Assembly: GCA_973895155.1 (NCBI GenBank)
Contig: OZ316897.1
Span: 17,032,058 to 17,096,057, forward strand
Origin: Marsupella aquatica
Lineage: Eukaryota; Plantae; Marchantiophyta
Direction of reading: 5' to 3'
Length of the DNA: 64,000 bases
The notes under the pieces were generated by a model, which searched no databases, was not told where the DNA came from, and saw only the letters and a program-made list of their open reading frames with translations. Within the stretch, counting starts at the first letter, position 1; the number at the start of each line of letters is the position of its first letter. Below are positions 4,801 to 57,705 of the stretch, in pieces. The translations under genes were made by a program, and so were the position numbers.

Positions 4801-7316
4801 TTAGAATTTGTGCAACTGTATCGACATGGTAGCTCCAGCGACATAAGGGAATCGCTTTCGATATCGCCAGCATTGAAGATTTCCCAGTGTCGTGGTCATG
4901 TGAGTCTTTGGTGTCGTGGCATGTAGCCACGAAGGGCCAACCTGTAAGTTCGCTCTCGCTGTCAATTTGCGGTCCTGTGTCTGATCGCGATTGATCCGTG
5001 GCTTAACGATCTGCCGTTACTTGGATACGGGAAAATTAGACATAGAGTTACGAGTCCAGACTGATTTATGGTCTGGTCTCAGCCCCTGGTTTGTTAATAA
5101 TTATAACCACTAAGTATCTCCAATACTCGAAGGCTCAGCCAAATCTTGTTGTAGGAACGGCCCGCCCCTACACTGTAGACAACCAGCCCGCCAACTGGCT
5201 CGAAGGTCCCGAGGAGGGGAACACCTTTGATAGTAGTGGTTAGCCAGGATTCGGATTAGAACACACCAAAGGAGAAAGTCAAATCTGGTGAGGAAGACTC
5301 AACACCACTGCGTTGGTTCGAAGCGTATCGAAAGGATTTGGGACTAATGAGTTAGGCAGTAGTTATTTACGAATTCGATCTGAAGTAATTCCCAGCCTGC
5401 TGCTGTGATGAGGGCTAGATAAACTAGAACGAAGGTCGTCGCTATTTTCCAGCATTCACCAAGTAAGGCCATCTCAAGGCTCATTATGACAACTCCCGTA
5501 CTTTGCTGCCTGCGTTACACTTCTGCTGCCCTCAGATTTGTTCCAAGTGTGATGAGCTGTGAATTGACCCCACTTTTTGGTGGGATGTGTATTTAAAGGG
5601 CTGTCGTCCATAGGGTTCGAGTCCACTACTGGCCTGCCCCCGTTCCAATGGTCTACCATTGCACAAGCATATACAGTAGCAATAGTCAGCATCGCAATAA
5701 TACCAGTATCTAACTCACTATGAGGGTCAAAAGGCACAGGCAGGTAAGGGCAGAAATGAATTACCCTTGACATTGCGTTTCGTTCCTATTTTTCCAGCTG
5801 ACACTAGATTGCTTGCTTCTCAAATATTTGCGTGAAAGATTATATCCACGGTTGTCAGTCATCGTCTTCTTTTTTGAAAGTGAGTGCGTCAGCATCGATC
5901 GTGCGCTTCCAAAGCGACTGTATCAGCAATGAATCAGCATCACTCATGTTGTCACAACTCGCACTTGCAGTGTACCACCACTTTGTGCACCCGTCTCTGC
6001 TTAATTAATGAATTGCCATGTACGCTATAGTATGTACGCGGTAAAGCAAAGGTTAAAAGAGCTATCTCCCTCCAGGCGTGGAGTGTTTCTCCAATAATAA
6101 TATCGATACAGTTCCACTTATCGCTGTACCGCAGGTTGGCCATACGTGCAAATGACGGGTAAATCTCTCGCCATCTTCGACCTCCTTTCCGTACTTATCT
6201 TCCCCGCAGATCCGGGATTCTCGTTTCCATCGACTCAAAGCTGTGCCTCTTGGAAGCTCCCACGGCATCATGGAGTGATTGGAGTCACTGGAATAGTGGA
6301 ATCATTGACTTCAGTCAGAAGACAGATGAATGTGCTTTCTTCGATTACCTTTTTGAGCGCTGTCATTCGGTGGAAGGAGTCCGAAGCCTAGTCAGCTCCT
6401 GAAGACCTTTAAGGCAGGGTGCTGGAGGATTCACTTTCTGCCATGCCTCAAAGCCCAACGTACGACAAGCTGCTATGTATGGATTTTTCGATGAGATCAC
6501 TTCAATCCAACTTTATACGGCAATTGCGGCCAAAAGCGAGAGAGAAACTTCTTCCAAAGGTCCGATTTGTGGCCCATGAATGGCAGCGAAAGAGACGGGC
6601 CGGCAGCCTCTCTTTTGCTACAGAAAACGTGCCGTTCACGGGGCTTGGTTTAACTTACTCTGCAGACTAGTGTAGTGACGGCATTTTTTTTAAAAGCTTG
6701 TATGCTTCGTTAGCTTTATCTTTATCTTCTTTATCTTATGCCCAGACCTTCGGGATTTTTTCCTTTTTGGGGTCGAGAAATGTATCAACTCATTGTCAAG
6801 ATGATCTGTTACTTTTACTAAAATCAGTAGAGACTAAAAATAACTTAGTCCGTAAAATGTATAAAGGTCTGTTTACCAGATCGTTATGGGCAATAAAAGC
6901 CAATTAAACCTAGAGGAAACTTTATTTTGGGGGCGCATTATATCTTATACTACTACTATGTTCTCGACTATGTCCTGAGCAAACAATGCCTTACTACATA
7001 ACGTAAATGAAGGTGACTGCATTCATGCCTGCCCAAAGCACCTTTAGTAAACAAATACCTTACATCATTTCCATAGACTCGCCTATCCCCAATCCTTATT
7101 GTGTCGTGACATATAGTATCGTAGCCATAGTGTATCGAAAACATACAAGTCACCTGCAATGCATGTGTGTAAGCTGCTAGCAACCAACATCCTTAGAAAA
7201 AGTCCAATCACATTCACAAGTGCCAAGAAAAAGCAACTGAGGTGGTATGTACGTAGTGGAGGTGTAAACCTCTGTATCCCCCCCAGACCACAGCCAAAAG
7301 GAGGGCTGAAGAAAAT

Positions 7317-10300
7317 TCAGGTAGCACGTGGAGCACAGGAAGGGCAAAACCATAACCCTTCTGGCACCTGGGTAAGTTCAAGCCGAAGGCAGAAAAGATG
7401 GTACCCTCCATTGCAATTATCACATAGCAGCATCTAGTCAGCATCGTCAATTCGCAAACAGACTTTGCAAGGGTAGTCCACAGGTGGAATCTAGGTAGAA
7501 GTCACAATGGTGGGATCCAGGTTGGGCAGATGACAAGGGGCGCAATTCTTGGCATTGTCAGCAATTGTGCGCCCATCTGCCCCTTGTAACTCTAGCACTC
7601 CAGACGGTCAAATAGCCTTAACCCTGAGAATGGTACGACTGGTAGAGGTGTCCAGGGTGTCGTTAGCTTGCCGCTGCAAGTACACAAAATCTCCCACATC
7701 AAACTTCCTGACCTTGGGCTTAAATGTGCCCCCTCGTGTGTGTGCATAACGCAGTGTGTCTCTGTGTTGTGCAATGGCCAAATTCTCCATGGCCATGGGC
7801 ATAACCCTCCTGAATAGGGCAGCCCTCTCAGAGATCACATCAGACCAAGTCACAGCTGAATCCAAGTCCACCACCTGAAGCATGTGAGCAGCAATAGCAG
7901 AAGGTGGAACTGGGTGACGACCAAACAACAAGAAGTAGGGAGAAAAGTTAGATAGTGATGCATGTCTGGACATCCTATACCCCATGGCAATGTAGGGTAA
8001 GGCCAGGTCCCAATCCTCCTTGTTTTTGGTGAGGCAGATCTTCCAGAGGCCCTTCTTGCATGTCTGAACCATGCGCTCTGCCAAGCCATCTGCCTGTGGG
8101 TGATCTCGTGATGTTCGACGATGATCAATGAGGGCCTGATCAAGCAGCTCCTGGAACTCTCCTCTAAACTCTGAGCCCTTGTCAGTGAGACATTATGCAC
8201 AAGCTCCAACGCGGCTGAGAACTTGTTGTAGGAATGCCTGGCAGGTGCTACGGGAGGTCTTATCTGGCAATGCCACAAGTTCTATCCACTTGGAGAAATG
8301 CTCTATCATGATCATGATGTAGAGATTACCCCAAGATGTGAGGGGTAATTCTCCAGCCAAATCACATGACCAACGATAAAACATGCCCTGAATAGGGAGT
8401 GGATGAAGTGTGAGTTGCCGAGATGTGAAAGAAGTCCTTACCCTATCACACTGCTCACACCGGGCAATAACATCTCGAACCTGGCCATGCATACCTCGCC
8501 AATGATAATGGGGGACCAAGAGGCTATAAGTCCTCTTAACACCAAAATGACCCAGCTCAGAATGTACCTTACGGATAAGGCCAATCCTCTCATGAATGGG
8601 TGGAACCACCACTTCCCTGTCTGGCAAGCAGCGCACAAGATGATCTCCCTTCCACAAGTAGCGCTTGGACCTTTGCTGAATTTGGTCTCTCTGGGCAGCA
8701 GTAACATGGGTGGGGTACTCCCCATGCTGCAGAAATCTCAGAGTGTCGCTGTCCTCCCATATGTCCACCACAGGTTGGTCAACAACGTAGCATGGCAGCA
8801 AAGCAAGATAGGTAGATGCATGAAATGTAGGCAGAATGGAAACCTGGTCAAAATCCTGCCGTGCATATGAGGAATCATCAGAGGCAATCAAAGGGCTGCG
8901 GGACATAGTGTCAGCATTTTGATGTATCACACCAGGCCTATGAATTACCTCAAAATCACACTCCTGGAGTATGAGCGCCCAACCAGCAAGCTTGCCAGTA
9001 AGCTTGTCGTTGGTCATCAACCACTTCAAGGGCTGGTGGTCTGTGTAGAGAACAAACCTGGTCCCATAGAGGTAGGGCCTGTAATGTATGACAGCCCACA
9101 CAACAGCAAGGCATTCACCCTCATAAGAAGAATAATGACTCTCTGCCTAATTGTTGCTCCTGGATGCATAGGCAATGACGTACTCTTTACCTTCCTCATC
9201 ATGCTGGCCCAGAATGGCACCAATCCCAAGGGCACTCCAATCTGTGTGTAGCACAAAGACCTTGCTGAAATCAGGTCTTCTCAGCACCGGGTATTCTAAG
9301 AGCTTCTTCTTCAAAGTGGCAAATGCTGCGTCAACATCTGTACTCCATGTCCAAGTCACATTCTTTTTCAACAAAACATACAATGGGTGTGCAATGGTAC
9401 TGAAATCTTTGATGTAGATCCGGTAGTAATTGCACAACCCAATAAAGCTCCTAAGAGTGTGAACATCAGTAGGAGTGGGCATTTCCAAGATGGATACCAC
9501 CTTGGCCCAGTGAGCCATGGTTCCATTTGGAAGAATGCGGTGCCCAAGGTATACTACTGATCTGACAGCAAATTCACACTTCTTGGGGTGTATCTTTAGG
9601 TTCACCTTCTTAAGCCTCATGAATAGCTCTTCAAGGTCAAGTAGATGCTGGTCAAATCCTTTGATGTGGACCAACACATCATCAATGTAGCATTTCATAA
9701 ACTCAGCACCTTGAAGAACCTGGTCCATGACTCTTTGAAAGAATATATATGGGCGCATTCTTCAAGCCAAATGGCATCACCAACCACTCCCATAGTTGGT
9801 TACTACCATGGAAAGCTGTTTTCTTGTGGTCCTTTGCAAGTAGCAAAATCTGGTTAAAGCCTTGCCTTAGATCCACAAGAGTGAAGATGTCTGAGTCTCC
9901 AATGCTGTCAAATAGCTCCTCTGGCCGTGGCATGGGGTACCTGTCTTGGGGTGTGACTAGGTTCAGTGGCCTGTAGTCCCCACACATGCGCTTCTCTATC
10001 CACAATCCACTGGAATCCTTCTTTGCTGGCATCACTGTAGCTGCTGCAAAATCTGATGTGGATGGCTGAATAAGACCAGCTTCATAGAGCTCTTGGCACC
10101 TCTCATCCACCAGCTGCCACTCATGCTTACTCAAACGATGTCTCCGCCTGAAGATAGGTGTTTCATCAGCCAACTCAATGGAGAACTGCATAGTCTTGCA
10201 CTTACCCAAGTCCTTCATAGAGAAAGCAAACACGTTCTCATGCTTGAGGAGCAAATTCAGCAACTGGTCCTTCTGTCTTTTACTCAGGTGGTTACCCATG

Positions 10301-11498
10301 ATGAATGTGTAGTTGGCAACACTAGGAATAGGACCTGATGTACTCGTGCTTGAAGAGCCAGAAGTGCCAGCCTCTCCACTGTCCAAGCTGCTAGCATGCT
10401 GCTGATAAGGTGATGAGGCCTCTCCAAGGCCTCTTGTACCTGCTGATCTGAGTTGGTCCACACCATGAAACTCAGAAATATTGTCAGCTACGTTACAAGG
10501 GACCTCCTCCCCCCCAACACTTGGACTGAAGCGGTGAGTGTTGAATAGAGGTAAGTGCACCTGGTCTGGATGCCATGTAGCAGCACCATGGAGTGGTAGA
10601 GCTAGAACTCCAGATGCTGGATGAATGTACATCTGAAAAAGGATGCAAGTGACCAGAAGCCAAGTGAGAGCATTAAGATCCATTACCCTACCAAGTAAAG
10701 CATTCCTGACCAGCCTGGTGATTTGGGTGTGGCCTGTAGTACAGGATTGGAAGCCCATAGCCCGTTCTCTCTCCTCAGGACTAGGTTCATCCCAAGTACC
10801 GGTAGAATGTCGATAAACCAGGCCAGGACCATCACCCTGAAAGGCATGTGCACCTGGAAAGGATACAAATGTAGACCAAGCAACACGGGGCTGTCCAATG
10901 GTATTGGCTGGATACCAAGGTGCTGGCTCTTGCCGTGTAACTGGTTGGAAAGAACTGTTAGGATCCAAAATCTGGTCCACTATGAGGTTAGTGTCCCTAG
11001 ATGTGTGGCGAAGAGCTAACTCCAATAAGGAAGGTGGTGCAAGGTTAGTCCAAAAGTTACGAAGACGATGTGCATAAGAACCACAGTGTACTGCATCAAT
11101 GAGAAGGGGTGGTCCCAAGTAGTGTTGGACCACATTGAAATCCTCCTTGACCTGTGGACGCTGGTCAAACTGAGATGGAGTATTCTCAATGATATAACCA
11201 ACAGCAGGATAAAGGGATTGAGCCCAAGTGAGAATCTGAACCAATGCTGTGAAAGGCCAGAACGAGAATCATGCAGTCCAGCACCGTGACCAGCAGCTGA
11301 ATACCCTTGGCATTCCCAACCAGCTATGATCAAATCAAGGGAGCCAAGAAGGGTTAAGTGCCGGTGCTAGACAAGCTGGATATCTCGAGGAAAGAAAGAA
11401 AATGCAGACTTCCATGCACTGTGTGGAAACTGCTGGGGAAATTGCTCTGAAAATTCCAGTAGACGGGATTCAGCCACTTGCCTTGCACCTGGATCAAT
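7317..11498 (-). pseudogene. pol: Disrupted pol of copy 1: C-terminal part of C5-DNMT, RT, RNase H, integrase, PHD
   Basis: Motifs GWECQGYS, IIENTP, RMCGDYRPLN, CYIDDVLV, LHTDWS, integrase H-H-C-C and WSCDLAG, MAERMVQT. Stops and a frameshift near 9745. Relative to copy 2, internal deletions at ~11498 (protease and DNMT motif I) and ~11999 (most of gag). Confidence 0.93.
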
Positions 11499-11683
11499 GG
11501 ATGAAGAATGGAGTGAGCCCTCTAGCGCTCTCATGACAACTCTAGCATCCAGCTGTAAATCATGGCAACTGAAAAGTGGAGTTGTAAGAATCCTTTGTGC
11601 TATACCGGAGGTGAAATGCTCAAGCAGCTTAGGAGAAACAACTCCCTGTGAAATGTCAGCAGCACCTGGTGGTGGAATGGATG

Positions 11684-11980
11684 CTCGGGGGTCTCACTAC
11701 ATGGGGACCTCCCCATCACCTGCGACGTTTTTAGGCCTTGGACCCCCTAAAATGTAAGAAAAAAATATTATTTTTTAACCCCTATAAAGTTGGAATATTC
11801 TTAGAATATTCCAAAAATTGGATTAAAAAGGCCCTAATGTTCTTATAAGTCTCAAAATTGAATTTAAAAGACCCTATTGTTCTTCTACAAAAATTCTTAA
11901 GTCTTCCCTTACAACCAATAAAATGACCCTATCCTTCGTCGCACGTGATATGCCATTTTTGTGGAAGTGAAACCCCCGAG
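11684..11980 (+). mobile_element. ~296-bp MITE, TIR CTCGGGGGT(C/T)TCACT, 8-bp TSD
   Basis: TSD AATGGATG on both sides. The empty site is visible in copy 2 (ggaatggatgtagctgcagc, ~52372-52391). Near-identical copies at 13464-13759 and 57410-57705. Confidence 0.95.
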
Positions 11981-12889
11981 AATGGATGTAGCTGCAGCTG
12001 GCATCCATGCTGTATATCGGTGAAGCAGAAATAACCACTAATGCAGAAGGGGTAAATGGCAATGAAGTGATAGCAGGCTTCAGAGTAGTGGTGAAGCGAC
12101 TGCCAAATATAGCAGAAGGATTGTGTGGTGTGGGTGCTGCTGCTGTCTGCTGACGTCGTCGAAATTGCCGAGACTCCAATAAAATTGGCACCAATGGTCG
12201 TGGATCACTCCGTAAGTGGTACCGGGGTGTTGGTGGCGATGAGCTGCTACCTCCTGGCTCGTCGGCTGACATGCTGCATGCTCACCCGGGGTGCCAATGG
12301 GAAAGAAATTGACAAGAAAAAGAAGTGGCAGGCCCAAGGCTAGGAAATAAACCCACAAAGGAAACAAACGGTGCAAGGCAGCAATGTGTAGAATGTGTAA
12401 ACACACAGAAAAACCATCGGCAAAGAAAAGACCCTTAAAAACTCCAATTATACCGGTGTTGTGCTTGCTGGATTGACTATCTGATGAATATGCCGGGCCC
12501 TCAGCTTTATGCAGATGACATGTGGCGGCAGCAAAGAAATCCGGAAAATTGGGCCCTTAAAAACATAAACCTGGGACCCCCTTAAGTGTATACATCGGCC
12601 CTTTCAAATGTATAAATATGGGGCCCGGTTAAGTGTATACATCGGGCCCCGATGTGGACCCGGGAAGTAGCAAGCAAGACGGAAAAGAGACCGGGCACGC
12701 GTCGGCAGCAAAATGGTCGTAGTGGGGACCGGCCGCGGTGCCCTATGTACATGCCCTCATGGGAGTCGAAAGACCCTCGCGCAGCGGGCGAGCGACCACG
12801 GAGGAATGGGGGGAAAAAGACGAAACCCAAGGCGAGGCGAGAGAAAAGAAAAACGGCCTTAATTGCTCCAGCCCTGCAAAGGGCTTCGT

Positions 12890-13400
12890 GCCATACGCCC
12901 TCCTTAGTCCTTATGAGCTCCCGAAAAGGGAGGCTATGAGCTCCCCCTCAATCCACTCCTTAAATGCTTCCGTGCCTGGCAGAGTGGCAGAAGGACTCCA
13001 GGGAAAGGAGTCAAATGTAACTCCCCCCTTCTTTAATTCTCCATAGGGCCTCGTGCCCTCCTTGCGCTTCAGCTCCCTCTCCTCCTTGCTTTCGCTTGTG
13101 CTTGGCTGCCCCTCCCCCTGCTTTAATGCTGCTTAGGGCCTCGTGCCCTCTCCTGGCACTCTCGCTCCCCCTTTAATGCTTCATAGGGCCTCGTGCCCTC
13201 TCCCTGCACTCGTGCTTTGGCTCCCCCTCCCCCTTTAACGCTGCTGAAAGTGGGCTCTGTGCCCTGCAGGACGACTCCGAGAGAGGGAGTCAAATGTACT
13301 CCCCCTTTAATGCAGCATAGGGCTTTGCGCCCCCCTTTCGCTTCCCCCTCCCCTTGTTAATTCTCCAGAGGCCTCTGTGCCTTCTCCTCTTGGCTCCCGG
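12890..13400. repeat. Degenerate ~50-60-bp tandem repeats in the 5' leader of copy 1
   Basis: Recurring cccc(t)tttaatgc...atagggcctcgtgccctc units, about 7 copies; a shorter version is at ~54745-54880 in copy 2. Confidence 0.75.
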
Positions 13401-13463
13401 CTTGTACTCGCTACCCCAAAAGAATCATTAAAATGTAAGGCGAAAGGTGAAGGGAAAGAAAAT

Positions 13464-13759
13464 CTCGGGGGTTTCACTTCCACAAAAATGACATATCATG
13501 TGCGACGAAGGATAGGGTCATTTTATTGGTTCTAAGGGAAGACTTAAGAATTTTTGTAGAAGAACAATAGGGTCTTTTAAATTCAATTTTGAGACTTATA
13601 AGAACATTAGGGTCTTTTTAATCAAATTTTTAGAATATTCCAAGTATATTCTAACTTTATAGGGGTTAAAAAATATAAAAAATTCTTACATTTTAGGGGG
13701 TCCGAGGCCTAAAAACGTCGTAGGCGATGGGGAGGTCCCCATGTAGTGAGACCCCCGAG
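13464..13759 (-). mobile_element. ~296-bp MITE (same family), 8-bp TSD
   Basis: ctcgggggtttcact ... agtgagacccccgag; TSD AAGAAAAT. Confidence 0.95.
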
Positions 13760-14623
13760 AAGAAAATGAGGGGAAGAAATGGGCGCGCGGCCCTATGCAC
13801 TTGGGAGGTATTCGCGAGGTGGTCGAGGCAGCGACGAGGTGGTCACGCTGCGGCCGAGGTAGGATGCAGCCGTGGCCGGCAAAAGAAACACCAAAAAAAT
13901 GGCCCGAAAAAGGTCGTGGCAGGCGCTAAAGCAGCATTTGGCAGCGGCCGGAAATGAAAAACCGTGAAAGCAAAGTGCGAAGGAAAAGAGGGAGGGGGGG
14001 GCTGTTTGACTTAAGTGTATATACTTAAGTGTATACACAAAAGCCATAACTTCCACCCCATCGCTCAACGTTTTTCCATAGAAATTGCACCGGCATCAAT
14101 GGAAAAGTGTCAACTATCTTGAGCAATTGAGAAGCACAGTGTCTCTGATCTTCTTCCCTTCACCGCTAACCCGACGACAGTTCTTCTTGAATAAAAGGCG
14201 TAAGAGAAACAATCGTATTGAAATCGAACCGAAAACCGGCGGGATGCCAAGATCGGTCGGGAGCATCTAACGAATCACTGTGTGAATTCCGTGTACAAAA
14301 CTGACAAGCACTGTCTGAGCTCTGTCAACAGCGATTCAAGAAGAACTGAAAAACGGCAAAGAAAAACATGCCCTAAGTAGGACCGGGTCCAGGCATCACA
14401 CTAACAAACATCTTTGCTTCAAGAACGGCCCAGGCTCGCTACAAGAACATGACACTAACTCAAATAGTACACTAGCCCTAACTACATACCTAGCGGGCAT
14501 GCGAGGGACATGCCGATGTGCACAAGAGGCACTGTCCCTCGGCATGACAATTGCATCATTTCCATAGACTCGCCTATCCCCAATCCTTATTTCCAGTATT
14601 GTCAACTTTAGTTACACCCCTAA

Positions 14624-15813: not shown

Positions 15814-16322
15814 TGTCATGCCGAGGAACAATGTCTCTTATGCACATCGGGATATCCCTTGCATGCCCGCTAGGTATGTAATTAGGGCCAGTACTTGAGT
15901 GAGCGACATGTTCTTGTAGCAAGTTTGGGCCATTCTTGAAGCAAATGTTTCTTAGTGTGACGCCTGGACTTGGTTTACTTAAGGCATGTTTGTCTTCATT
16001 GGTTTTCAGTTCTTCTTGAATAGCTGTTGAGATAGAGCTTGTCGATTTTGTACATGGAATTTAGACAGTGATTCGTTAGATGTCCTGGCCAATCTTGGCA
16101 TCCCGCCAATTTTCCTTTTAATTTCAATACACTTGTTTCTGTTATGCCTTTTATATACAAAGGTTTACACCTCCACTACTTATAATTATACCATCTTATT
16201 TGGTTTTTTTTTGTGCTTGTAAATGTGATGAGACTTTTTCTTTGCATTGTTGGTGATATATATATTGTTGGTGACTTGTATGATTTTGATATGCTCTGGC
16301 TACAATACTATATATCATGACA
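15814..16322 (+). mobile_element. Solo A-B terminal-repeat unit of the Gypsy-DNMT family (diverged)
   Basis: tgtcatgccgagg ... gccttttat|atacaaaggtttacacctccactac ... tatatcatgaca. The A/B junction (16154/16155) is the same as in 46140-46679. TSD not recognisable (aagg / tggg). Confidence 0.88.
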
Positions 16323-19760: not shown

Positions 19761-19886
19761 CTTACTTCCAAAAAAATGACACATCACGTGAAACGAAAGA
19801 TAGGGTCATTTTATAGGTTCTAAGGGAAAATTTGAGAATTTTTTGAGAAAACAATAAAGTCTTTTAAATCCAATTTGAGACTTATA
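19761..19886 (-). mobile_element. Fragment of the ~296-bp MITE family
   Basis: acttccaaaaaaatgacacatcacgtg...gatagggtcattttat...gagacttata matches 13476-13600. Confidence 0.75.
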
Positions 19887-27747: not shown

Positions 27748-27903
27748 TGGGGTGGTCGAGAGCGTTGTTAGATCCGTAAGGACACGGCTTTAGTAGCCAT
27801 TTGTTGGCACATTCCTTGGTTCTGTGGCACTTTGTCTCGCAGGTTGGGGTTGAAGTGGACTGATTTTGTGGTATGTTCTCAGGTTTGAAGATCAGGCAAA
27901 AAC

Positions 27904-45703: not shown

Positions 45704-46139
45704 TGTCACAATGCCCACCAGCATTATACATATATCACAGTAGGGATCCCTTTCATCCCAAAGGCAAAGCTGAAGATCCCAAAGGCAAAGCTGATGATCC
45801 CAAAGGCAAAGCTGATCCCAAAGGCAAAGCAACCCAACCCAATGAAAGGGATGAAAAGAGGGGAAATGACCCCAAGAAAAACAAGCCCAGGGTCCCAACC
45901 AAAAGCCAACAAAGAACAAGGACCAAAAAGTAACCACCAACAAAGGACAAGGACCAAAAAGTAACCAGCAACCAACAAGGACTAAAAAGTAACCAACAAA
46001 GGAGTTGTGAAGGCTAACACCCTACAGAAGGGAGAACTGAAAAGCATAGGAGGGTCACCAAGTGGAACCTGTCAGGAGTCCCTAAAACCAACGGCCTCAG
46101 CCCTATGAAGAAAGGTGAATGCATTATACAACTCCTTGG
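45704..46139. repeat. Repeat-rich segment, possibly an older solo LTR (continuing at 55750-55789) into which copy 2 inserted
   Basis: Seen: atcccaaaggcaaagctga x4 (45755-45830) and acaaggaccaaaaagtaacca x3 (45915-46000). Inferred: tgtcaca...taataaca termini with tcac/tcat flanks. Confidence 0.45.
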
Positions 46140-46317
46140 TGTCGTGACATATAGTATCGTAGCCATATAGTGTATCGAAAACATACAAGTCACCAGCAAT
46201 GCATATGTGCAAGCTGCTAGCAACCAACATGCATAGAAAAAGTCCAATCACATTCACAAGTGCCAAGAAAAAGCAACTGAGGTGGTATGTACATAGTGGA
46301 GGTGTAAACCTCTGTAT
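46140..46317 (-). repeat. Terminal repeat B2 (178 bp)
   Basis: About 3 mismatches to B1 (46682-46859) by eye. Confidence 0.95.
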
Positions 46318-46679
46318 ATAAAAGGCGTGATAGAAACAAACGTACTGAAATCGAATCGAAAACCGGCGAGATGCCAAGATCGGCCGGGAGCATCTAACGA
46401 ATAACTGTGTGAATTCCGTGTACGGAACCGACGAGCAGCCTCTGAAAAACTCTGTCTCACAGTGATTCAAGAAGAACTGAAGAACGGCAAAGAAAAACAT
46501 GCCCTAAGTAGCACCGGGTCCAGGCGTCACACTAACAAACCCCTTTTGCTTCAAGAACAGCCCAGACTCGCTACAAGAACATGACACTAACTCAAGTAGT
46601 ACACTAGCCCTAACCATACCTAGCGGGCATGCGAGGGACATGCCGATGTGCACAAGCGGCACTGTCCCTCGGCATGACA
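46318..46679 (-). repeat. Terminal repeat A2 (362 bp)
   Basis: About 7 mismatches to A1 (55384-55745) by eye. Confidence 0.95.
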
Positions 46680-46681
46680 GT

Positions 46682-46859
46682 TGTCGTGACATATAGTATC
46701 GTAGCCATATAGTGTATCGAAAACATACAAGTCACCAGCAATGCATATGTGCAAGCTGCTAGCAACCAACATGCATAGAAAAAGTCCAATCACATTCACA
46801 AGTGCCAAAAAAAAGCAACTGAGGTGGTATGTACGTAGTGGAGGTGTAAACCTTTGTAT
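46682..46859 (-). repeat. Terminal repeat B1 (178 bp), directly after the PPT
   Basis: Separated from A2 by 2 bp (+ strand gaca-gt-tgtc). Confidence 0.95.
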
Positions 46860-46866
46860 CCCCCCC
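46860..46866 (-). other. Polypurine tract (G7)
   Basis: GGGGGGG 32 bp after the pol stop and abutting B1; same arrangement in copy 1 (7278-7284). Confidence 0.75.
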
Positions 46867-46898
46867 AGACCACAGCCAAAAGGAGGGCTGAAGAAAAG

Positions 46899-49800
46899 TC
46901 AGATAGCACGTGGAGCACAGGAAGGGCAAAACCATAACCCTTCTGGCACCTGGGTAAGTTCAGGCCGAGGGCAGAAAAGATGGTACCCTCCATTGCAATT
47001 GTCACACAGCAGCATCTGGTCAGCATCATCAATTCGCAAACACACTTTGCAAGGGTAGTCCACAAGTGGAATCCAAGTAGAAGTCACAATGGTGGGATCC
47101 AGGTTAGGCAGATGACAAGGGGCGCAATTCTTGGCATTGTCAACAATTGTGCGCCCATCTGCCCCTTGTAACTCTAGCACTCCAGACGGTCGAATAGCTT
47201 TGACCCTGAGAATAGTGCGACTGGTAGAGGTGTCCAGGGTGTCGTTAGCTTGCCGCTGCAAGTACACAAAATCTCCCACTTCAAACTTCCTGACCTTGGG
47301 CTGAAAAGTGCCCCCTCGTGTGTGTGCATAACGCAGTGTGTCCCTGTGTTGTGCAATGGCCAAATTCTCCATGGCCATGGGCATAACCCTCCTGAATAGG
47401 GCAGCCCTCTCAGAGATCACATCAGACCAAGTCACAGCTGAATCAAAGTCCACCACCTGAAGCATGTGAGAAGCAATAGCAGAAGGTGGAACTGGGTGAC
47501 GACCAAACAACAAGAAGTAGGGAGAAAAGTTAGACAGTGATGCATGTCTGGACATCCTATACCCCATGGCAATGTAGGGTAAGGCCAGGTCCCAATCCTC
47601 CTTGTTTTTGGTGAGGCAGATCTTCCGAAGGCCCTTCTTGCATGTCTGAACCATGCGCTCTGCCAAGCCATCTGCCTGTGGGTGATCTCGTGATGTCCGG
47701 CGATGATCAATGAGAGCCTGATCAAGCAACTCCTGGAACTCCCCTCTGAACTCTGATCCTTGGTCAGTGAGACATTCTGCACAAGCTCCAAAGCGGCTGA
47801 GAACTTGTTGCAAGAATGTTTGGCTAGTGCTATGGGAGATCTTATCCGGCAATGCCACAAGTTCTATCCACTTGGAGAAATGCTCTATCATGATCATGAT
47901 GTAGAGATTACCCCGAGATGTGAGGGGTAATTCTCCAGCCAAATCACATGACCAACGATAAAACATGCCCTGAATAGGGAGTGGATGAAGTGTGGGTTGC
48001 CGAGATGTGAAAGAAGTCCTTACCCTATCACACTGTTCACACCGGGCAATAACATCTTGAACCTGGCCATGCATGCCTCTCCAATGATAATGGGGGACTA
48101 AGAGGCTATAAGTCCTCTTAACACCAAAATGACCAAGCTCAGAATGTACCTTACGGATAAGGCCAACCCTCTCATGAATGGGTGGAACCACCACTTCCCT
48201 GTCTGGCAGGCAGCGCACAAGATGATCTCCCTTCCACAAGTAGCGCTTGGACCTTTGCTGAATTCGGTCTCTCTGGGCAGCAGTAACATGGGTGGGGTAC
48301 TCCCCATGCTGCAGAAATCTCAGAGTGTCGCTGTCCTCCCATATGTCCACCACAGGTTGGCCAACAATGTAGCATGGCAGCAAAGCAAGATAGGTAGATG
48401 CATGAAATGTAGGCAGGATGGAAACCTGGTCAAAATCCTGTCGTGCATCTGAGGAATCATCAGAGGTAATCAAAGGGCTACGGGACATAGTGTCAGCATT
48501 CTGATGTGTCACACCAGGCCTATGAATTACCTCAAAGTCATACTCCTGGAGTATGAGCGCCCAACGAGCAAGCTTGCCAGTAAGCTTGTCATTGGTCATC
48601 AACCACTTCAAGGGCTGGTGGTCGGTGTAGAGAACAAACCTGGTCCCATAGAGGTAGGGCCTGTAATGTATGACAGCCCACACAACAGCAAGGCATTCAC
48701 CCTCATAAGAAGAATAATGACTCTTTGCTTGGTTGTTGCTCCTGGATGCATAGGCAATGACGTACTCCTTACCTTCCTCATCATGTTGGCCCAGAATGGC
48801 ACCAATCCCAAGGGCACTCCAATCTGTGTGTAGCACAAAGACCTTGCTGAAATCAGGTCTTCTCAGCACCGGGTATTCTGAGAGCTTCTCCTTCAAAGTG
48901 GTAAATGCTGCCTCAGCATCTGTACTCCATGTCCAAGTCACATTCTTTTTCAACAAAGAGTACAATGGGTGTGCAATGGTAATGAAATCTTTGATGTAGA
49001 TTCGGTAATAATTGCACAACCCAATAAAACTCCTCAAAGTGTGAACATCGGTAGGAGTGGGCATTTCCAAGATGGATACCACCTTGGCCCAGTGAGCCAT
49101 GGTTCCATTTGGAAGAATGTGGTGCCCAAGGTATACTACTGATCTGACAGCAAATTCACACTTCTTGGGGTGTAACTTTAGGTTCACCTTCTTAAGCCTC
49201 ATGAATAGCTCCTCAAGGTCAAGTAGATGTTGGTCAAATCCTTTGCTGTGGACCAACACGTCATCAATGTAGCATTTCAGAAACTCAGCACCTTGAAGAA
49301 CCTGGTCCATGACTCTTTGGAAGAATATGGGCGCATTCTTCAAGCCAAATGGCATCACCAACCACTCCCATAGTTGGTTACTACCATGGAAAGCTGTTTT
49401 CTTGCGGTCCTTTGCAAGCAGCAAAATCTGGTTAAAGCCTTGCCTTAGATCCACAAGAGTGAAGATGTCTGAGTCTCCAATGCTGTCAAATAGCTCCTCT
49501 GGCCGTGGCATGGGGTACCTGTCTTGGGGTGTGACCAGGTTTAGTGGCCTGTAGTCCCCACACATGCGCTTCTCTGTCCACAATCCACTGGAATCCTTCT
49601 TTGCTGGCATCATTGTAGCTGCTGCAAAATCTGATGTAGATGGCTGAATAAGACCAGCTTCATAGAGCTCTTGGCACCTCTCATCCACCAGCTGCCACTC
49701 ATGCTTACTCAAACGGTGTCTCCGCCTGAAGATAGGTGTTTCATCAGCCAACTCAATGGAGAACTGCATAGTCTTGCACTTACCCAAGTCCTTCATAGAG

Positions 49801-52800
49801 AAAGCAAACACATTCTCATGCTTGAGGAGCAAATTCAGCAGCTGGTCCTTCTGTCTTTTACTCAGGTGGTTGCCCATGATGAATGTGTAGTTGGCAACAC
49901 TAGGAATAGGACCTGATATACTCGTGCTTGAAGAACCAGAAGTGCTAGCCTCTTCATTGTCCAAGCTGCTAGCATGCTGCTGATAAGGTGATGAGGCCTC
50001 TCCAAGGCCTGTTGTATCTGTTGATTTGAAGTGGTCCACACCATGAAACTCAGAAATAATGTCAGCCGCATTACAAGGGACCTCCTCCCCCCCAACACTT
50101 GGACTGAAGTGGTGAGTGTTGGACGGAGGTAAGTGCACCTGGTCTGGATGCCATGCAGCAGCACTGTGGAGTGGTAGGGCGGGAGCCCCTAATGCTTGAG
50201 GAATGTACATCTGAAAAAGGATGCAAGTGACCAGAAGCCAAGTGAGAGCATTGAGATCCATTACCCTGCCAAGTAAAGCATTCCTGGCCAGCCTGGTGAT
50301 TTTGGTGTGACCTGTAGTACCGGGTTGGAAGCCCATAGCTCGTTCTCTCTCCTCAGGACTAGGTTCATCCCATGTACCGGTAGAATGTCGATAAACCAGA
50401 CCAGGACCATCACCCTGAAAAGCATGTGCACCTGGAAAGGACACAAATGTAGGCCAAGCAGCACGGGGTTGTCCAATGGTATTGGCTGGATACCAAGGTG
50501 CTGGCTCTTGCCGTGTAACTGGTTGGCAAGAACTGTCAGGATCTAAAATCTGGTCCACTGTAAGGTTAGTGTCCCTGGATGTGTGGTGAAGAGCCATCTC
50601 CAGCAAGGAAGGTGGTGCAAGGTTAGTCCAAAAGTTACGAAGACGATGTGCATAAGAACCACAGTGCACTGCATCAATGAGAAGGGGTGGTCCCAAGTAG
50701 TGCTGGACCACACTGAAATCCTCTTTGACCCGTGGACGCTGGTCAAACTAAGATGGAGTATTCTCAATGATATAACCAACAGCAGGATAAAGGGATTGAG
50801 CCCAGGTGAGAATCTGAACCAATGCTATGAAAAGGCCAGAACGAGAATCATGCAGTCTAGCACCGTGACCATCAACTGAAAACCCTTGGCATTCCCAACC
50901 AGCTATGATCAAATCAAGGGAGCCAAGAAGGGTTAAGTGCCGGTGCTGGACAAGCTGGATATCTAGAGGGAAGAAAGAAAATGCAGACTTCCATGCACTA
51001 TGTGGAAACTGCTGGGGAAATCGCTCTGAAAATTCCAGCAGACGGGATTCAGCCACTTGCCTTGCACTTGGATCAATATCCACATAGATGTACTGCTTCA
51101 CCACCATGTCAGACTTTAGGAGAGCTTCCAGGCCTGTAGAAATGCCACCAAAAAGCTCAAGCAATGTAAGGCCATCTGAAGGAGGAGTCCATGTAACTGG
51201 TGCGCTCAAGATTGGGGCTATTGGTTGTCCATTATGCTGCCCAAGGTCCTCAAATTTGTGCAATGCAGCCACCAAAGGTCCATGGGCTGCTTGGAGCCGT
51301 TGTACCACCTCTGGTTGATGATCCACGTTGCTGGAAAGTGCTGCTATACGTGCAGTAGCATGTGCAGTAGCCACCTCATCATCATCCTCCTCAATCCAAT
51401 CCTGCAATGGGTGGTTGACATAGGTAGCTGTGTGCACTGCTTTCAACACACAGTGGTGAGCCATAGGGGTATGGGCACCATGCAAATCAAGTGGAATGTA
51501 TCCCAAGTGTGAGCCATCCGTATGCCAATCAACTCTGTAGTATGCATGCTCATGCCAGTTGTCAATGGTAAAACCTGGTGGGAACAAAGCCTCCTGGCCA
51601 ATGAGCACATCATACGTAGTGGCATTGGTAACCAAACATCTAACTGGGAAATGCAGTTCCTGATCTGTACCTCCATTAAAAGTGAGAGTGAGTAAAGTAG
51701 AACTCTCACCCAGCACATCCTCCACAGTGCCACTAGCAGTCCGAATGTGCCACCTGGATTGCTGTAAATGATCAGTCAGCAATCCCATCTTCTTGGCAAA
51801 CTGAATGCCCAAGATTACTGGTTGAGCGCCTGTGTCTAGCATGACCACCTGAGGAGTGTGACCCTCCAACTTGACTGCTGAATTCCTATTGTCAACAATG
51901 GCAATGGTGGTGGAAACTAAAGTCTAGTCACTAGGCACCACTTTTGGCAAATGATGAGGTACCTTGTGAAGGGAGTTAGTGTCCATGGTCTTCCCACTCA
52001 ACAGCATAGCCAGGAAAGATGAAGCAGCATGACCAGAATCAAGTGTAGCTCTGGTCACACAATCTGTAGCAATACTGTCATCTCTACCACTGGAAATCGG
52101 TACTGGGATAGCCAAACCAGTGGAAGCATGCAATGAAGAAGAAGAAGGTCCAGTATATACATGAGATTGGACCTCCAAAACCGGTGTCACAGGGGCTGAT
52201 GAAGAATGCAGTGAGCCCTCTAGCGCTCTGATGACAGCTCTAGCATCCAGCTGTAAATCATGGCAACTGAAAAGTGGAGTGGTAAGAATCCTTTGTGCCA
52301 TACCGGAGGTGAAATGCTCAAGCAACTCAGGAAAAACAACTCCCTATGAAATGTCAGCAGCACCTGGTGGTGGAATGGATGTAGCTGCAGCTCCCTCCCC
52401 CCTCGCCAACAAGGTGCGCTCTTCAGCAAGTGTGAGGGGCTGAAAAGATTGGGGCATGACAGCCCGAGCTCCCCTGGCTCTAGTCATAGGACCAGCAGCA
52501 AGACCATCAGCCTGTACAATGCGGCGTGTGGGAGCAATACGGGAGGCAGCACTGGCCTGCTGGTAAGCAAAATAGGAAGGGCAGAATGAATCTGAAAATT
52601 CTGCTGTAAGGCCAGGCTATGTAGCAGAGGACAGCACACACTCACCCATATGAGCATCAAATGGCAAGCCATAGAAAGAGCGGGGTAGAGGTGCTGAACT
52701 ATCAGTGGTGCCTGGGCCAGGGATGGGTTGCACATGACCAACCGGTTGAGAAGGACCAGCAGAGGCAGTGGACTTGCCTTTGATGTTGGCAAGTTGGGCA

Positions 52801-54247
52801 CGTAAGGACTCAACCTCATGAATTAGAGACTGGAGTTGAGTTGCCTGTGCGTTGTGAGCCTCCTTCTGAGCTGGTTGCTTCTGTTGCTGCTTGGGCAATT
52901 TGTTAGCACTGGATGCTTTGCCATTGGAAGGAGGAGCAACTGATGCAGTAGGAGCCCTCCTAGCTGGTGGGGGAGTGGAAGCAGGAGTAGGATGAGGGGT
53001 CTGCTATTGTAGCTGCTTCCTCTCTGGGAATTTGGCAAAGCAAACTACCTCCAAGTGGCCCACTTTTCTGCAAAAATTACAAGACAGGTCCTCAGCAACA
53101 ATATCACATTCATTAGCCTTGTGATTGGGGTTACCACAGTAGTTGCAAGATGGCAGCATGAGAGCAGCATGGGCTGGCTTGGTCTTGGAACCATACTGTG
53201 CCACACGGGAAGGGGTGGCCAGTGTAGGGGCAGCAGCCTGGTACCTGGATCACGGTGGACGCGCAATACTGGCCTCATAATGTGCATGGGCCAACTCAAG
53301 TTTCTCAGCAGTGTCATAGACATTGAGCAGGGTGTAGCTGTCTCCAAACTCTAAGAATACTTGCTGCAACACTTGCGAATGGAGAGCTGGTGGTCAATGA
53401 TGCTCTGGGTGTCCTCCTTCAGCTTGAGAAGCCGACGATACATCATCTTCAATGTTTCATCACGCTGCCTCACAAAGGTGGCCAATTGCATGATTTTGTC
53501 AGCACTCTTGATGGGGAATTCCAATTCAAGAACCTGGAAAAACTCAGCCACTGGATCAGCAAAGGCAGGGGAATCAATGGTGGGAGAAATGCCTGATGTA
53601 GCCTGTGCCAAGATAGTGGGAGTAACTGGCGCAGTGGTAGGAACTGGAGTAGGAGGGGAAGTGGCAGGAGCAGCAGCATGGGCTGCAATGGCATTCTGTA
53701 ATGCCATTTGTGAGGCAGCCGCAATTGCACTGGCATAGGCAGGGTTAGGCAATTATGTGACAGCAAGCAGCCATTGAGAGTGCTGCTCATACACATCCAA
53801 AGCCTCATGGTGCACATACCTAGCTAGCTGCTTGAATGCAAAAGCATTTGTGAAATTGCTGCCGTACTTCAACTCCAATTTGTAAACGATAGTGTAGAAA
53901 GTGGATTTGAACTCACGTAAAGAGACAGTGCCTGGCCGCCCGCTGAAGCGCTCAATGCGGCCAGATGAGTGACTGGCATCCATGTTGTATGTCGGTGAAG
54001 CTGGAACAATCATTGATGCAGAAGGAGAAAAAGGCAAAGAAGTGATAGCAGGCTTCGGGGTAGAGGTGAAGCGACCGCCAAATGTAGCAGAAGGGTTGCG
54101 TGGTGTGGGTGCTGCTGCTGTCTGCTTACGTCGTCAAAATTGCCGAGACTCCAATGAAATTGGCACCAACGGTCGTGGATCACTCCGCAAGTGGTACCTG
54201 GGTGTTGGTGGCGATGAGCTGCTACGAGTCGGCTCCTCTGCTGACAT
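46899..54247 (-). pseudogene. gag-pol: Single gag-pol ORF (~2450 codons): Gag with two CCHC knuckles, aspartic protease, C5-cytosine methyltransferase (~50240-51170), RT, RNase H, DDE integrase, PHD finger (~46914-47051)
   Basis: CNYCGNPNHKANEC and CNFCRKVGHLEVVC; MLDTGA; LLELFGGI, GWECQGFS, IIENTP, HRLRNFWTN, LLGRVM; CYIDDVLV; HTDWS/EGEC/YTDH; WSCD, LTDQGSEF, GLAER; CKVC...CDNCNGGYHLFC...WFCPSC. Eight in-frame stops and one frameshift (~53210), all 5' of 50747. Confidence 0.95.
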
Positions 54248-55370
54248 GCTGCATGCTCACCTGGGGTGCCAATGGGAAAGAAACTGACAAGAAAAAGAAG
54301 TGGCAGCCCCAAGGCTAGGAAATGAAACCCACAAAGGAAACAAACGGTGCAAGGCAGCAATGTGTCGAATGTGTAAACACACAGAAAAACCGTTACAAAG
54401 AAAAATTGTCGGCAAAGAAAAGCCCCTTAAAAACTCGGGAAAGGCCTAATGTTGGCGGCAATAAAGAAATCCGGGAAAGGAAACTAGAAGTGGCCCTCCC
54501 TTAAGTGTATACATCGGGCCCCTATGTGGACCCAAAAACTGGCAGGAAAAGGAAAACCAAAGAGGCACGCGTCAGCGGGAAAAGAAAACCGGGCCAAGTG
54601 GGACACAGGATCTGAAGTGTATACACATCAGCCCGATGTGGACCCGAGAGATGGAAACAGGTCGATCGTCGCGCAGCAAAAAAGCGAGACAAGCCGAAAA
54701 AGGCGAAAAGAAAACGGGAAGAGTGAGGCGAATAAAAAGAAATGAGCCCTGTGCATAGGGCTTCGCACCCCCCTCCCCCCTCCTTATGAGCTCTCGAAGC
54801 CTCCTTTTATTGCAGCATAGGGCCTCGTGCTCGGCCCCCCCTCCTGCCACCAGCTCTATTAAGACCAGGGCACGATGCCCTATGTGCGTAAGGCGGAGTG
54901 AAAGGAGCGCGCGCGGCCCTATGCTCGGCCCAGGGGCATTGATGGGCCCCGAATGTGTGTATACATAGGCACTCAGGCAGGGTAGCTGCCGGACCGAAAG
55001 CATCTCGCGACGGCAAAGAGTAAAGAAAAAGGGGTCGCGACCGGGGAATAGCTCGCGACGGAAATTGGCCGGGGAACACCAAAAAATGGCCCGAAAAAGG
55101 TCATGGCAGTCAGCAGCCGGCAGCCATAGTGGAAGCAGCAAAGGGTCCCCGGATGCAACCGGAAAGAAAAAATCGGGCTCCAACAGGAGCGTTATGTGTA
55201 TACTTATGTTAAGTATACACTTAACACCATATTGGACCCATAATTTCAACCCGTGCCTCCATTGTTGCTCAAAGAAATTGCACCGGCTTCGACAGAAATT
55301 GTCTGGACCGACATAGCAGCTGAGAAGCACAACGTCTTTGATCTTCTTCTCTTCACCGCTAACCCGGCGG

Positions 55371-55385
55371 CAGTTCTTCTTGAAT
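55371..55385 (-). other. Putative self-priming primer-binding site
   Basis: cagttcttcttgaat is the perfect reverse complement of attcaagaagaactg (55531-55545) inside A1; conserved in copy 1 (14178-14192 / 14334-14348). No TGG-type tRNA PBS is present. Confidence 0.72.
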
Positions 55386-55745
55386 AAAAGGCGTGATATA
55401 AACAAACGTACTGAAATCGAATCGAAAACCGGCGAGATGCCAAGATCGGCCGGGAGCATCTAACGAATCACTGTGTGAATTCCGTGTACGGAACCGACAA
55501 GCAGCCTCTGAAAAACTCTGTCTCACAGCAATTCAAGAAGAACTGAAGAACGGCAAAGAAAAACATGCCCTAAGTAGGACCGGGTCCAGGCGTCACACTA
55601 ACAAACCCCTTTTGCTTCAAGAACAGCCTAGACTCGCTACAAGAACATGACACTAACTCAAGTAGTACACTAGCCCTAACCATACCTAGCGGGCATGCGA
55701 GGGACATGCCGATGTGCACAAGCGGCACTGTCCCTCGGCATGACA
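55384..55745 (-). repeat. Terminal repeat A1 (362 bp), 5' end of copy 2
   Basis: Direct repeat of 46318-46679; homologous to 14191-14549. Confidence 0.95.
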
Positions 55746-55932
55746 TTGGCTCCAGTAAAGCTTCTCTGACACCACCCCCTCTAATAACATCATCCCAGTT
55801 CCAAATAGCATCCAGTCCCAAACAGACTGGATGCTATCTGGGTTAGAACACTAATTATGGGCCCCAAATGGCATCCAGTCCCAAGACAATGCTATTCAGG
55901 ATAGAGTCTTACTGATAAATGGCAAGCAATTA

Positions 55933-57409: not shown

Positions 57410-57705
57410 CTCGGGGGTCTCACTACATGGGGACCTCCCCATCACCTGTGACGTTTTTAGGCCTTGGACCCCCTAAAATGTAAGAAAAAAATATTATTTT
57501 TTAACCCTTAGAAAGTTGGAATATTCTTGGAATATTCCAAAAATTGGACTAAAAGTCCCTAATATTCTTATAAGTCTCAAAATTGAATTTAAAAGACCCT
57601 ATTGTTCTTCTACAAAAATTCTTAAGTCTTCCCTTACAACCAATAAAATGACCATATCCTTCGTCGCACGTGATATGCCATTTTTGTGGAAGTGAAACCC
57701 CCGAG
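57410..57705 (+). mobile_element. ~296-bp MITE (same family as 11684), 8-bp TSD
   Basis: ctcgggggtctcact ... agtgaaacccccgag; TSD TTTGCATT. Confidence 0.95.

What the first reader, a model, noticed from the sequence alone, without database searches (positions are those of the whole stretch)
46140..55745. DDE-integrase Gypsy element with PAT/Ngaro-like split direct repeats instead of LTRs: apparent integration of a cDNA circle cut inside the LTR
Seen: in element sense the order is A1(362 bp)-leader-gag-pol-PPT-B1(178 bp)-AC-A2-B2. The whole unit is bounded by TGTCATG...CACGACA and a 4-bp TSD (TTGG). The reverse-transcription landmarks (PPT before B1, PBS after A1) define the LTR as B+A, beginning ATACA and ending TTTTAT, which lack TG...CA. 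The integrase-type ends sit in the middle of that LTR, as GACA-AC-TGTC (46676-46685). Known: A1-ORF-B1-A2-B2 is the layout of PAT/Ngaro tyrosine-recombinase retroelements, which integrate circles; ordinary Ty3/Gypsy elements integrate linear cDNA between two full LTRs; IS3/IS30 DDE enzymes cut abutted ends separated by 2-3 bp in circles. Inference: linear cDNA BA-int-BA is ligated into a 2-LTR circle (junction TTTTAT|ATACA at 46318/46317), and the integrase cleaves the internal CA-AC-TG site of the upstream LTR, giving exactly A-int-B-A-B. I am not aware of this being described for a DDE-integrase element, and standard LTR finders would miss or mis-trim it.
Basis: partly seen in the sequence, partly recalled or inferred. 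Interest (0 to 1): 0.95.

Follow-up and report, generated by a model that had tools for sequence, protein, structure and literature searches.

The report
Retrotransposon that integrates from mid-LTR
This broken plant jumping gene and its relatives across green plants and algae begin and end at a small palindrome in the middle of the repeat that reverse transcription is predicted to put at the ends of the DNA copy, so their ordinary integrase likely cuts the copy open internally instead of using its free ends, a route that my searches did not find described for this class.

Summary
Observation confirmed: A1-internal-B1-AC-A2-B2, ends TGTCATG/CACGACA, 4-bp duplication; Pol is protease, DNMT3-like methylase, RT, RNase H, DDE integrase, PHD; no tyrosine recombinase. 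The PBS is a predicted Tf1-type self-primer, not a tRNA site. A related metagenome family without detectable repeat similarity gives 39 unique 3' ends: 20 end in B, 18 in B-RY-A|B, 1 aberrant, none conventional; all 12 5' ends start at A; 10 of 10 whole copies carry 4-bp duplications (7 exact). The spacer is always 2 bp; the A|B join is ragged. The GACA-RY-TGTC palindrome recurs in 8 of 24 distant loci, including the chlorophyte-type subclade. One first-reader prediction fails: the mirror product A|B-AC-A-internal-B is missing (0 of 12 versus 18 of 38, p=0.002), so random cutting of a two-LTR circle is insufficient; integrase likely commits to the left site. The layout was noted once (KnitGypsy-Dnmt3, 2018 figure legend); I found no mechanism in print. 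This scan reported the lineage six times before, twice in this genome. New variant; interest 0.78.

The parts
55746..55749 (-). left target-site duplication (CCAA in element sense)
55384..55745 (-). A1: left end of the inserted copy, starts TGTCATG; predicted 3' part of U3 plus R-U5
55533..55544 (-). predicted self-primer and transcript 5' end (AGTTCTTCTTGA), complementary to the PBS
   Evidence: start of transcription inferred, not measured
55372..55383 (-). primer-binding site directly after A1 (TCAAGAAGAACT), not tRNA type
52620..54133 (-). gag-like region, broken by stops and a frame change; two CCHC zinc knuckles near 53150-53040
   Evidence: PF00098 on the first knuckle
51585..51875 (-). 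aspartic protease
   Evidence: PF13975, PF13650
50211..51176 (-). C5 cytosine methyltransferase domain of DNMT3-like type inside Pol, with an in-frame stop at 50750-50748
   Evidence: PF00145; the DNMT3 label rests on recalled motifs and on PMC5890265
48540..49577 (-). reverse transcriptase (YIDD) and RNase H
   Evidence: (best PDB match Ty3 Gag-Pol, E 2e-89)
47400..48182 (-). integrase: H2C2 zinc domain and core with D-D-35-E
46917..47051 (-). C-terminal PHD finger in place of a chromodomain
   Evidence: PF00628, E 2.6e-10
46860..46866 (-). polypurine tract (G7) directly before B1
46682..46859 (-). B1: predicted 5' part of U3; starts ATACA, ends CACGACA
46673..46686 (-). uncut internal attachment palindrome CACGACA-AC-TGTCATG (core 46676-46685; spacer 46680-46681)
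46318..46679 (-). A2
46140..46317 (-). B2: right end of the inserted copy; the A2|B2 join at 46318/46317 is the predicted join of the two cDNA ends
46136..46139 (-). right target-site duplication (CCAA in element sense)
7102..14549 (-). second copy, A-internal-B only, same ends, 4-bp duplication CAAT; internally deleted, with two short inserted elements
15814..16322 (+). older solo A|B (76% identical), same TTTTAT|ATACA join, no matching 4-bp flanks

Best explanation
This is a broken copy of a Gypsy-lineage retrotransposon whose inserted copies start and end at a palindrome lying inside the predicted reverse-transcription repeat, most likely because its DDE integrase cuts that internal site rather than the free ends of the DNA copy. 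Steps. (1) Shown: ends TGTC...GACA with 4-bp duplications, PPT before B, PBS after A, 2-bp spacer. (2) Inferred: the RNA runs from about 200 nt inside A1 to A2 and primes itself as Tf1 does, so reverse transcription yields B-RY-A-internal-B-RY-A. (3) Inferred: staggered cuts on either side of the 2-bp spacer give two ends with a recessed CA-3'OH and a 2-nt 5' overhang, the shape of a processed retroviral end. (4) Inferred: a one-LTR intermediate cut at its only site gives A-internal-B, which lacks a second R and would be a dead end. (5) Inferred: a two-LTR copy cut at the left site, with host end-joining of the right cDNA end (A) to the left cDNA end (B), gives A-internal-B-RY-A|B, the form that keeps an R at both ends of its RNA. 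(6) Hypothesis for the one-sided outcome: after the second strand transfer the left repeat is duplex at once, while the right repeat stays single-stranded until 9 kb of plus strand are made, so integrase commits to the left site. Whether the A|B join is made before integration (two-LTR circle) or after it is open. Confidence by step: internal integrase site about 0.9; join remade by end repair each cycle about 0.8; the timing explanation about 0.4.
For: Window: three copies with the same ends, two with exact 4-bp duplications. Family M (52 of 89 fetched loci; integrase 61-83% identical to the window's, repeats without blastn match to it): 39 unique resolved 3' ends = 20 B-flank, 18 B-RY-A|B, 1 aberrant; 12 of 12 5' ends begin at TG(T/C)CATG with no B before them; 10 of 10 copies with both ends have 4-bp duplications, 7 exact and 3 with one transition. 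Spacer 2 bp, purine-pyrimidine, in 20 of 20. A|B joins: 5 blunt, 9 lacking 2 nt at an AT overlap, 3 with larger deletions, 1 other (by eye), scattered over the tree (9 changes, shuffled mean 8.2). A1 and A2 of one copy are sisters in 5 of 6 copies. The two forms are mixed on the tree (15 changes, shuffled mean 13) and do not differ in end-branch length (0.074 and 0.076, p=1.0). The self-primer differs between four families yet stays complementary to the PBS, and lies about 30 nt below a TATA-like box in three. All 18 exact GACA-RY-TGTC matches in 860 kb of loci lie downstream of a PPT-like G run. In public runs 14 contigs leave A at its TGTC start into unlike sequences (agreement 0.4), whereas the listed loose ends at the A end are the PBS and at the B start the PPT; four deletion variants and one insertion variant of the A|B join are listed. 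HIV-1 and foamy-virus integrases can cut a palindromic circle junction to give CA-3' ends (PMC4372172, passages).
Against: No cDNA, circle, transcript end or cleavage was observed; all mechanism is read from inserted copies. The mirror product is missing, which a plain circle model does not explain and my timing step only rationalises. L034 has a partial extra A at its 5' end that could be a deleted mirror product. L050 ends B-GT-A joined to inverted element DNA, not to B. The solo A|B in the window has no matching flanks. The B1/B2 tree is largely unresolved: own B1 nearest in 4 of 16, and one weak pairing of two B2 (83/79). Trees are star-like, so 'not clustered' is a weak test. Two distant loci (L064, L065) have a G run but no palindrome; 10 of 24 were uninformative. 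One search showed 18 of 104 loose-end rows. Three family-M loci with 10 kb upstream (L028, L030, L038) showed no A there.
Confidence: 0.72

Rival explanations
1. One reading: a covalently closed two-LTR circle is the substrate, and either of its two identical sites may be cut.
For: The A|B join sits exactly at the PBS and PPT boundaries and is ragged; two-LTR circles form in the nucleus by end joining (PMC7197481, passages).
Against: Predicts equal numbers of A|B-RY-A-internal-B; seen 0 of 12 5' ends against 18 of 38 3' ends (Fisher p=0.002; the sets share copies) and 0 of 7 whole two-site copies (p=0.008 one-sided).
Confidence: 0.1
2. A-internal-B copies are not one-LTR products but arise later from A-internal-B-A-B by recombination between B1 and B2, which keeps the target duplication. 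The rest of the model stands.
For: B1 and B2 are direct repeats only 360 bp apart; the product would look the same (sequence logic).
Against: The short form is not more frequent among older copies: end branches 0.074 against 0.076, and 7 of 15 copies in the youngest supported clade.
Confidence: 0.2
3. PAT/Ngaro-like copying: the RNA covers A1 to B2, the order A1-B1-A2-B2 and the A|B join are inherited, and the B1-A2 junction only templates closure of a circle that integrase then opens.
For: Same layout as PAT and Ngaro elements (PMC4157794, passages); it would explain the one-sided order without an extra step.
Against: The join lies at the PBS and PPT boundaries in families with unrelated repeat sequence; join types are scattered; A1 and A2 are homogenised within a copy; the predicted RNA start is inside A.
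Confidence: 0.1
4. Chance nesting of a solo repeat at the end of an ordinary element, or collapse of repeats in assembly.
For: Short-read metagenome contigs can mis-join repeats; L050 may be such a case.
Against: Constant 2-bp spacer in 20 of 20, target duplications around the whole unit in 12 of 12 copies with both ends (window included), same layout in unrelated families.
Confidence: 0.01

Closest known systems
KnitGypsy-Dnmt3 of Klebsormidium nitens (de Mendoza et al. 2018, PMC5890265; section 9 read whole, passages, supplements searched)
   Same: Gypsy domains, DNMT3-type methylase in Pol, repeat layout 'the same as that of a DIRS retrotransposon' (Fig. 4c legend). Three Klebsormidium proteins fall in the same RT-RNase H clade as the window's element.
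   Different: The text I read gives no target duplication, attachment palindrome, primer type, short form or mechanism. The figure itself is not held. The three Klebsormidium proteins I had gave no methylase hit, so their identity with KnitGypsy-Dnmt3 is not shown.
Tf1/sushi group and plant Tcn1 chromoviruses (PMC7175516, PMC6317226; passages)
   Same: Self-priming: first 11 or so bases of the RNA pair with the PBS.
   Different: They end in two full LTRs and Tcn1 carries a chromodomain; this element has a PHD finger, and chromodomain-bearing proteins fall outside its clade (no named Tcn1 reference in the tree).
PAT, TOC and Ngaro tyrosine-recombinase retroelements (PMC4157794; passages)
   Same: A1-ORFs-B1-A2-B2 split direct repeats.
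   Different: No tyrosine recombinase found; DDE integrase, protease, PPT, PBS and 4-bp target duplications instead; a short A-internal-B form is as common as the long one.
Integrase cleavage of two-LTR circle junctions in HIV-1 and foamy virus (PMC4372172; passages)
   Same: A DDE integrase cuts an internal palindrome and yields CA-3' ends fit for integration.
   Different: There it is a back-up route at the junction of the true cDNA ends; here the palindrome is templated inside the repeat, the cDNA ends carry no integrase signal, and every copy seen uses the internal site.

Membership tests
Ty3/Gypsy LTR retrotransposons | Pol order protease-RT-RNase H-integrase with D-D-35-E | tested here: met
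Ty3/Gypsy LTR retrotransposons | TG...CA ends with a 4-5 bp target duplication | tested here: met
Ty3/Gypsy LTR retrotransposons | two complete LTRs at the ends, PBS after the first and PPT before the second | tested here: not met
   left end is A only; right end is B or B-RY-A|B in 38 of 39 resolved ends. Gypsy by its proteins, not by its end structure.
KnitGypsy-Dnmt3 type | cytosine methylase inside Pol | tested here: met
KnitGypsy-Dnmt3 type | A-coding-B-A-B repeats | tested here: met
KnitGypsy-Dnmt3 type | common descent with the published element | tested here: inconclusive
   Klebsormidium proteins share a clade (SH-aLRT 99 for 36 rows; 87 for the streptophyte-type subclade), but the published element's own sequence was not in hand
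Tf1/sushi and Tcn1 chromoviruses | self-primer complementary to the PBS | tested here: met
   (prediction from sequence; RNA end not measured)
Tf1/sushi and Tcn1 chromoviruses | chromodomain after integrase | tested here: not met
   PHD finger, no chromodomain hit
Tf1/sushi and Tcn1 chromoviruses | RT clade with named Tcn1, Tf1 or Chlamyvir references | not tested
   no named reference was among the proteins fetched
PAT/TOC/Ngaro | split direct repeats | tested here: met
PAT/TOC/Ngaro | tyrosine recombinase instead of integrase | tested here: not met
   no such Pfam hit in 7 of the 27 frames of 100 aa or more, chosen on the coding strand; DDE integrase present

The most novel reading that the evidence does not exclude
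An old clade of Gypsy-lineage retroelements, present in both streptophyte and chlorophyte lineages, has uncoupled the ends made by reverse transcription from the ends used for integration: integrase acts as a site-specific endonuclease on a 2-bp-spaced palindrome inside the repeat, always at the left site, and the element can only stay replication-competent if host end-joining seals its two cDNA ends. This would be a third integration route beside linear DDE integration and tyrosine-recombinase circles, and a template for how split direct repeats arise.
Probability: 0.6. Interest if true: 0.9.

Novelty: new variant of a known kind. Interest (0 to 1): 0.78.

Why it matters
Textbook LTR elements and retroviruses integrate the free ends of a linear copy, and circles count as by-products; internal cleavage is known as a back-up in HIV-1 and foamy virus. 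A whole natural clade that seems to rely on an internal site gives a direct system for asking how an integrase cuts a duplex palindrome and picks one of two identical sites. It would make host end-joining part of the replication cycle and about half of all insertions dead on arrival. The layout also means that finders looking for two terminal LTRs will likely miss or mis-trim these abundant elements in bryophyte and algal genomes, together with the DNA methylase and PHD finger they carry.

Tried and rejected
No RNA holder listed: nothing on expression or transcript ends. Summed contig depth was not used for copy ratios. blastn of the window's A, B and leader against the 89 loci gave no hit, so boundaries in family M were found afresh. 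Viral contigs gave one distant match; L081, L088, L089 (22-27% identity) were not analysed; 10 family-M loci did not reach or show a repeat; 8 duplicate loci (L003, L008, L010, L019, L022, L028, L043, L078) and 3 ends cut by the contig (L001, L002, L015) were dropped before counting 3' ends. Reading A+B as an ordinary TG...CA LTR was rejected: PBS and PPT lie at the inner A and B boundaries. A tRNA primer was rejected: no TGG start. The self-primer scan found the pair in 7 of 12 family-M 5' ends at 10 nt or more without mismatch, and missed it in 5 decayed copies and in L084; its hits in L077 and L085 were not verified. Literature searches: 'split direct repeats'+gypsy+integrase, Klebsormidium/methyltransferase/PHD (11), Chlamyvir+PHD (16), 'split LTR'+gypsy (37, none), KnitGypsy (47, only the 2018 paper), Marchantia/Ty3/DNMT3 (48), Chlamydomonas/PHD/REM1 (51), 'circularly permuted'/'two-LTR circle' (63; the hit concerns sheared circle reads): none described this mechanism. 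Subscription journals, Repbase reports and bioRxiv supplements are not covered. A sequence look-up in the scan's notes found nothing.
Full report
Observation. The layout is as reported. On the minus strand lie A1 (55745-55384), the internal region, a G7 tract, B1 (46859-46682), AC, A2 (46679-46318) and B2 (46317-46140). A1 and A2 differ at 7 of 362 sites, B1 and B2 at 3 of 178, the unit starts TGTCATG, ends CACGACA and is flanked by CCAA on both sides. Pol holds protease, a C5 methylase, RT, RNase H, an integrase with D-D-35-E and a PHD finger; its best solved match is Ty3 Gag-Pol. The copy is broken by seven in-frame stops and a frame change. The window holds two more copies: A-internal-B with the same ends and a CAAT duplication (7102-14549), and an older solo A|B with the same TTTTAT|ATACA join but no matching flanks (15814-16322).

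Where reverse transcription starts and stops. The 12 bases after A1 do not begin with TGG; they are the reverse complement of a stretch 201 bases into A, and pairing extends to 14-15 bases into the end of A. Family M has the same arrangement with two compensating changes, about 30 nt below TATAAAA; L082 and L035 have other sequences that pair likewise. Tf1 primes with the first 11 bases of its RNA (PMC7175516, passages), and REXdb predicts the same for Tcn1 (PMC6317226, passages). So the RNA likely starts inside A, and with the PPT before B the cDNA repeat is B-spacer-A. This is inference; no RNA run was available.

Where integration happens. No genome was held, so I fetched 89 related loci. 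Fifty-two matched the repeats of one family, M (integrase 61-83% identical to the window's; repeats without blastn match to it; host not determined). After dropping 8 duplicates and 3 ends cut by the contig, 39 3' ends remain: 20 stop after B, 18 run B-RY-A|B, and one (L050) runs B-GT-A into inverted element DNA. All 12 5' ends start at A with no B before it. Ten copies have both ends, four short and six long; all have 4-bp duplications, 7 exact and 3 with one transition. No conventional copy was seen. In public runs of the window's own family, 14 contigs of run X3 leave A at its TGTC start into unlike sequence, while the listed loose ends at the A end and B start are PBS and PPT (18 of 104 rows shown).

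Two junctions of opposite character. The B-A spacer is 2 bp in 20 of 20 copies and always purine-pyrimidine; distant relatives mostly have GC, a perfect palindrome, and the variants fit decay of methylated cytosines (inference). Cuts on either side of this spacer would leave a recessed CA and a 2-nt 5' overhang on both ends, as in a processed retroviral end (established chemistry, recalled). The A|B join is ragged: 5 blunt, 9 short of 2 nt at an AT overlap, 3 with larger deletions, 1 other, scattered over the tree. Public contigs add four deletions and one insertion at this join, and two joins of the B start to internal positions. A1 and A2 of a copy are sisters in 5 of 6 cases; the B tree is mostly unresolved. 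Short and long forms are mixed on the tree and of equal apparent age, so both likely arise at each round; these trees are star-like and the test is weak.

Breadth. Of 24 distant loci (41-55% identity), 8 have exact GACA-RY-TGTC 58-190 bases below a G run, one has one mismatch, three end after B, ten are uninformative and two lack it. L083 shows B-GC-A|B. All 18 exact matches in 860 kb lie at this position. On an RT-RNase H tree of 51 rows (2 short rows left out; quick method, rooting uncertain) the window's element sits in a clade of 36 rows (SH-aLRT 99) with Calypogeia, Marchantia, Coleochaete, Closterium and Klebsormidium proteins in one subclade and Pleodorina and Haematococcus proteins in another; palindrome-bearing loci fall in both, and chromodomain-bearing proteins outside. 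The palindrome occurs with the methylase before RT, after RNase H, or absent, so it does not depend on the methylase.

A two-LTR circle has two identical sites. Cutting the right one gives A|B-RY-A-internal-B. That form is absent: 0 of 12 5' ends against 18 of 38 3' ends (p=0.002; the sets share copies), and 0 of 7 whole two-site copies. L034, with a partial extra A, is the one doubtful case. I therefore hold that integrase commits to the left site. The simplest reason is timing: after the second strand transfer the left repeat is duplex at once and the right one only after 9 kb of plus-strand synthesis; if displacement does not occur, the nicked one-LTR circle has a single site and gives the short form. 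This step is a hypothesis. It also means that a circle is not required: cutting the left site of a linear copy and repairing the A and B ends after insertion gives the same product.

Comparison and novelty. De Mendoza et al. 2018 state in the legend of Fig. 4c that KnitGypsy-Dnmt3 has the repeat structure of a DIRS element with Gypsy domains; section 9, the passages and the three supplements searched give no ends, duplications or mechanism, and the name occurs in no other paper of the library. PAT and Ngaro share the layout but use a tyrosine recombinase (PMC4157794, passages). HIV-1 and foamy integrases can cut a palindromic circle junction as a back-up (PMC4372172, passages). Eight searches aimed at this layout or mechanism found no description. 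Six earlier notes of this scan, two from this genome, reach the same basic reading; they are leads, not support, and the first pointed me to the 2018 paper.

Verdict. A real, clade-wide departure from the LTR end structure; layout noted once in print, mechanism inferred and untested. New variant of a known kind, interest 0.78; 0.9 if obligate internal cleavage is shown.

Noticed in passing
window 11684-11997, 13463-13759, 57410-57705, partial 19764-19886: A 300-bp non-coding element in three near-full copies (92-97% alike) and one fragment; two sit inside the second retrotransposon copy in opposite orientations. Looks like a MITE.
   Followed up: partly
window 7060-7101 and 14550-14590: The second copy sits in a roughly 39-bp tandem duplication of the target, so its flanks match far beyond the 4-bp duplication.
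   Followed up: partly
L041, L046, L061, L062, L065, L077 versus L004, L035, L082; L048, L085, L086: The methylase lies between protease and RT in the window's subclade, between RNase H and integrase in the chlorophyte-type subclade, and was not detected in some members: moved or gained twice within one clade.
   Followed up: partly
L082-L087: Six contigs filed under bacterial or archaeal genome bins carry this eukaryotic retroelement; likely contamination of the bins.
   Followed up: no
window 23953-26574 (-) and 27889-29802 (+): Two long stop-broken coding regions facing apart; one frame matches DUF7869 (E 2e-48), the others nothing in Pfam; perhaps a decayed DNA transposon.
   Followed up: partly
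window 41464-42366 (-): Intronless 300-aa protein kinase frame (PF00069, E 1e-59).
   Followed up: no
window 46000-54000 and 8000-12000: CpG is strongly depleted in the coding part of both copies (observed/expected about 0.2-0.26) but not in the leader (about 0.7).
   Followed up: no
proteins P0298, P0311: Gypsy-type Pol with integrase-PHD and PF05869 (an adenine methylase family, name recalled) instead of the cytosine methylase, just outside the clade.
   Followed up: no
L046, L062 downstream of integrase: 2.5-3.8 kb lie between the PHD finger and the PPT in these chlorophyte-type elements; content not examined.
   Followed up: no
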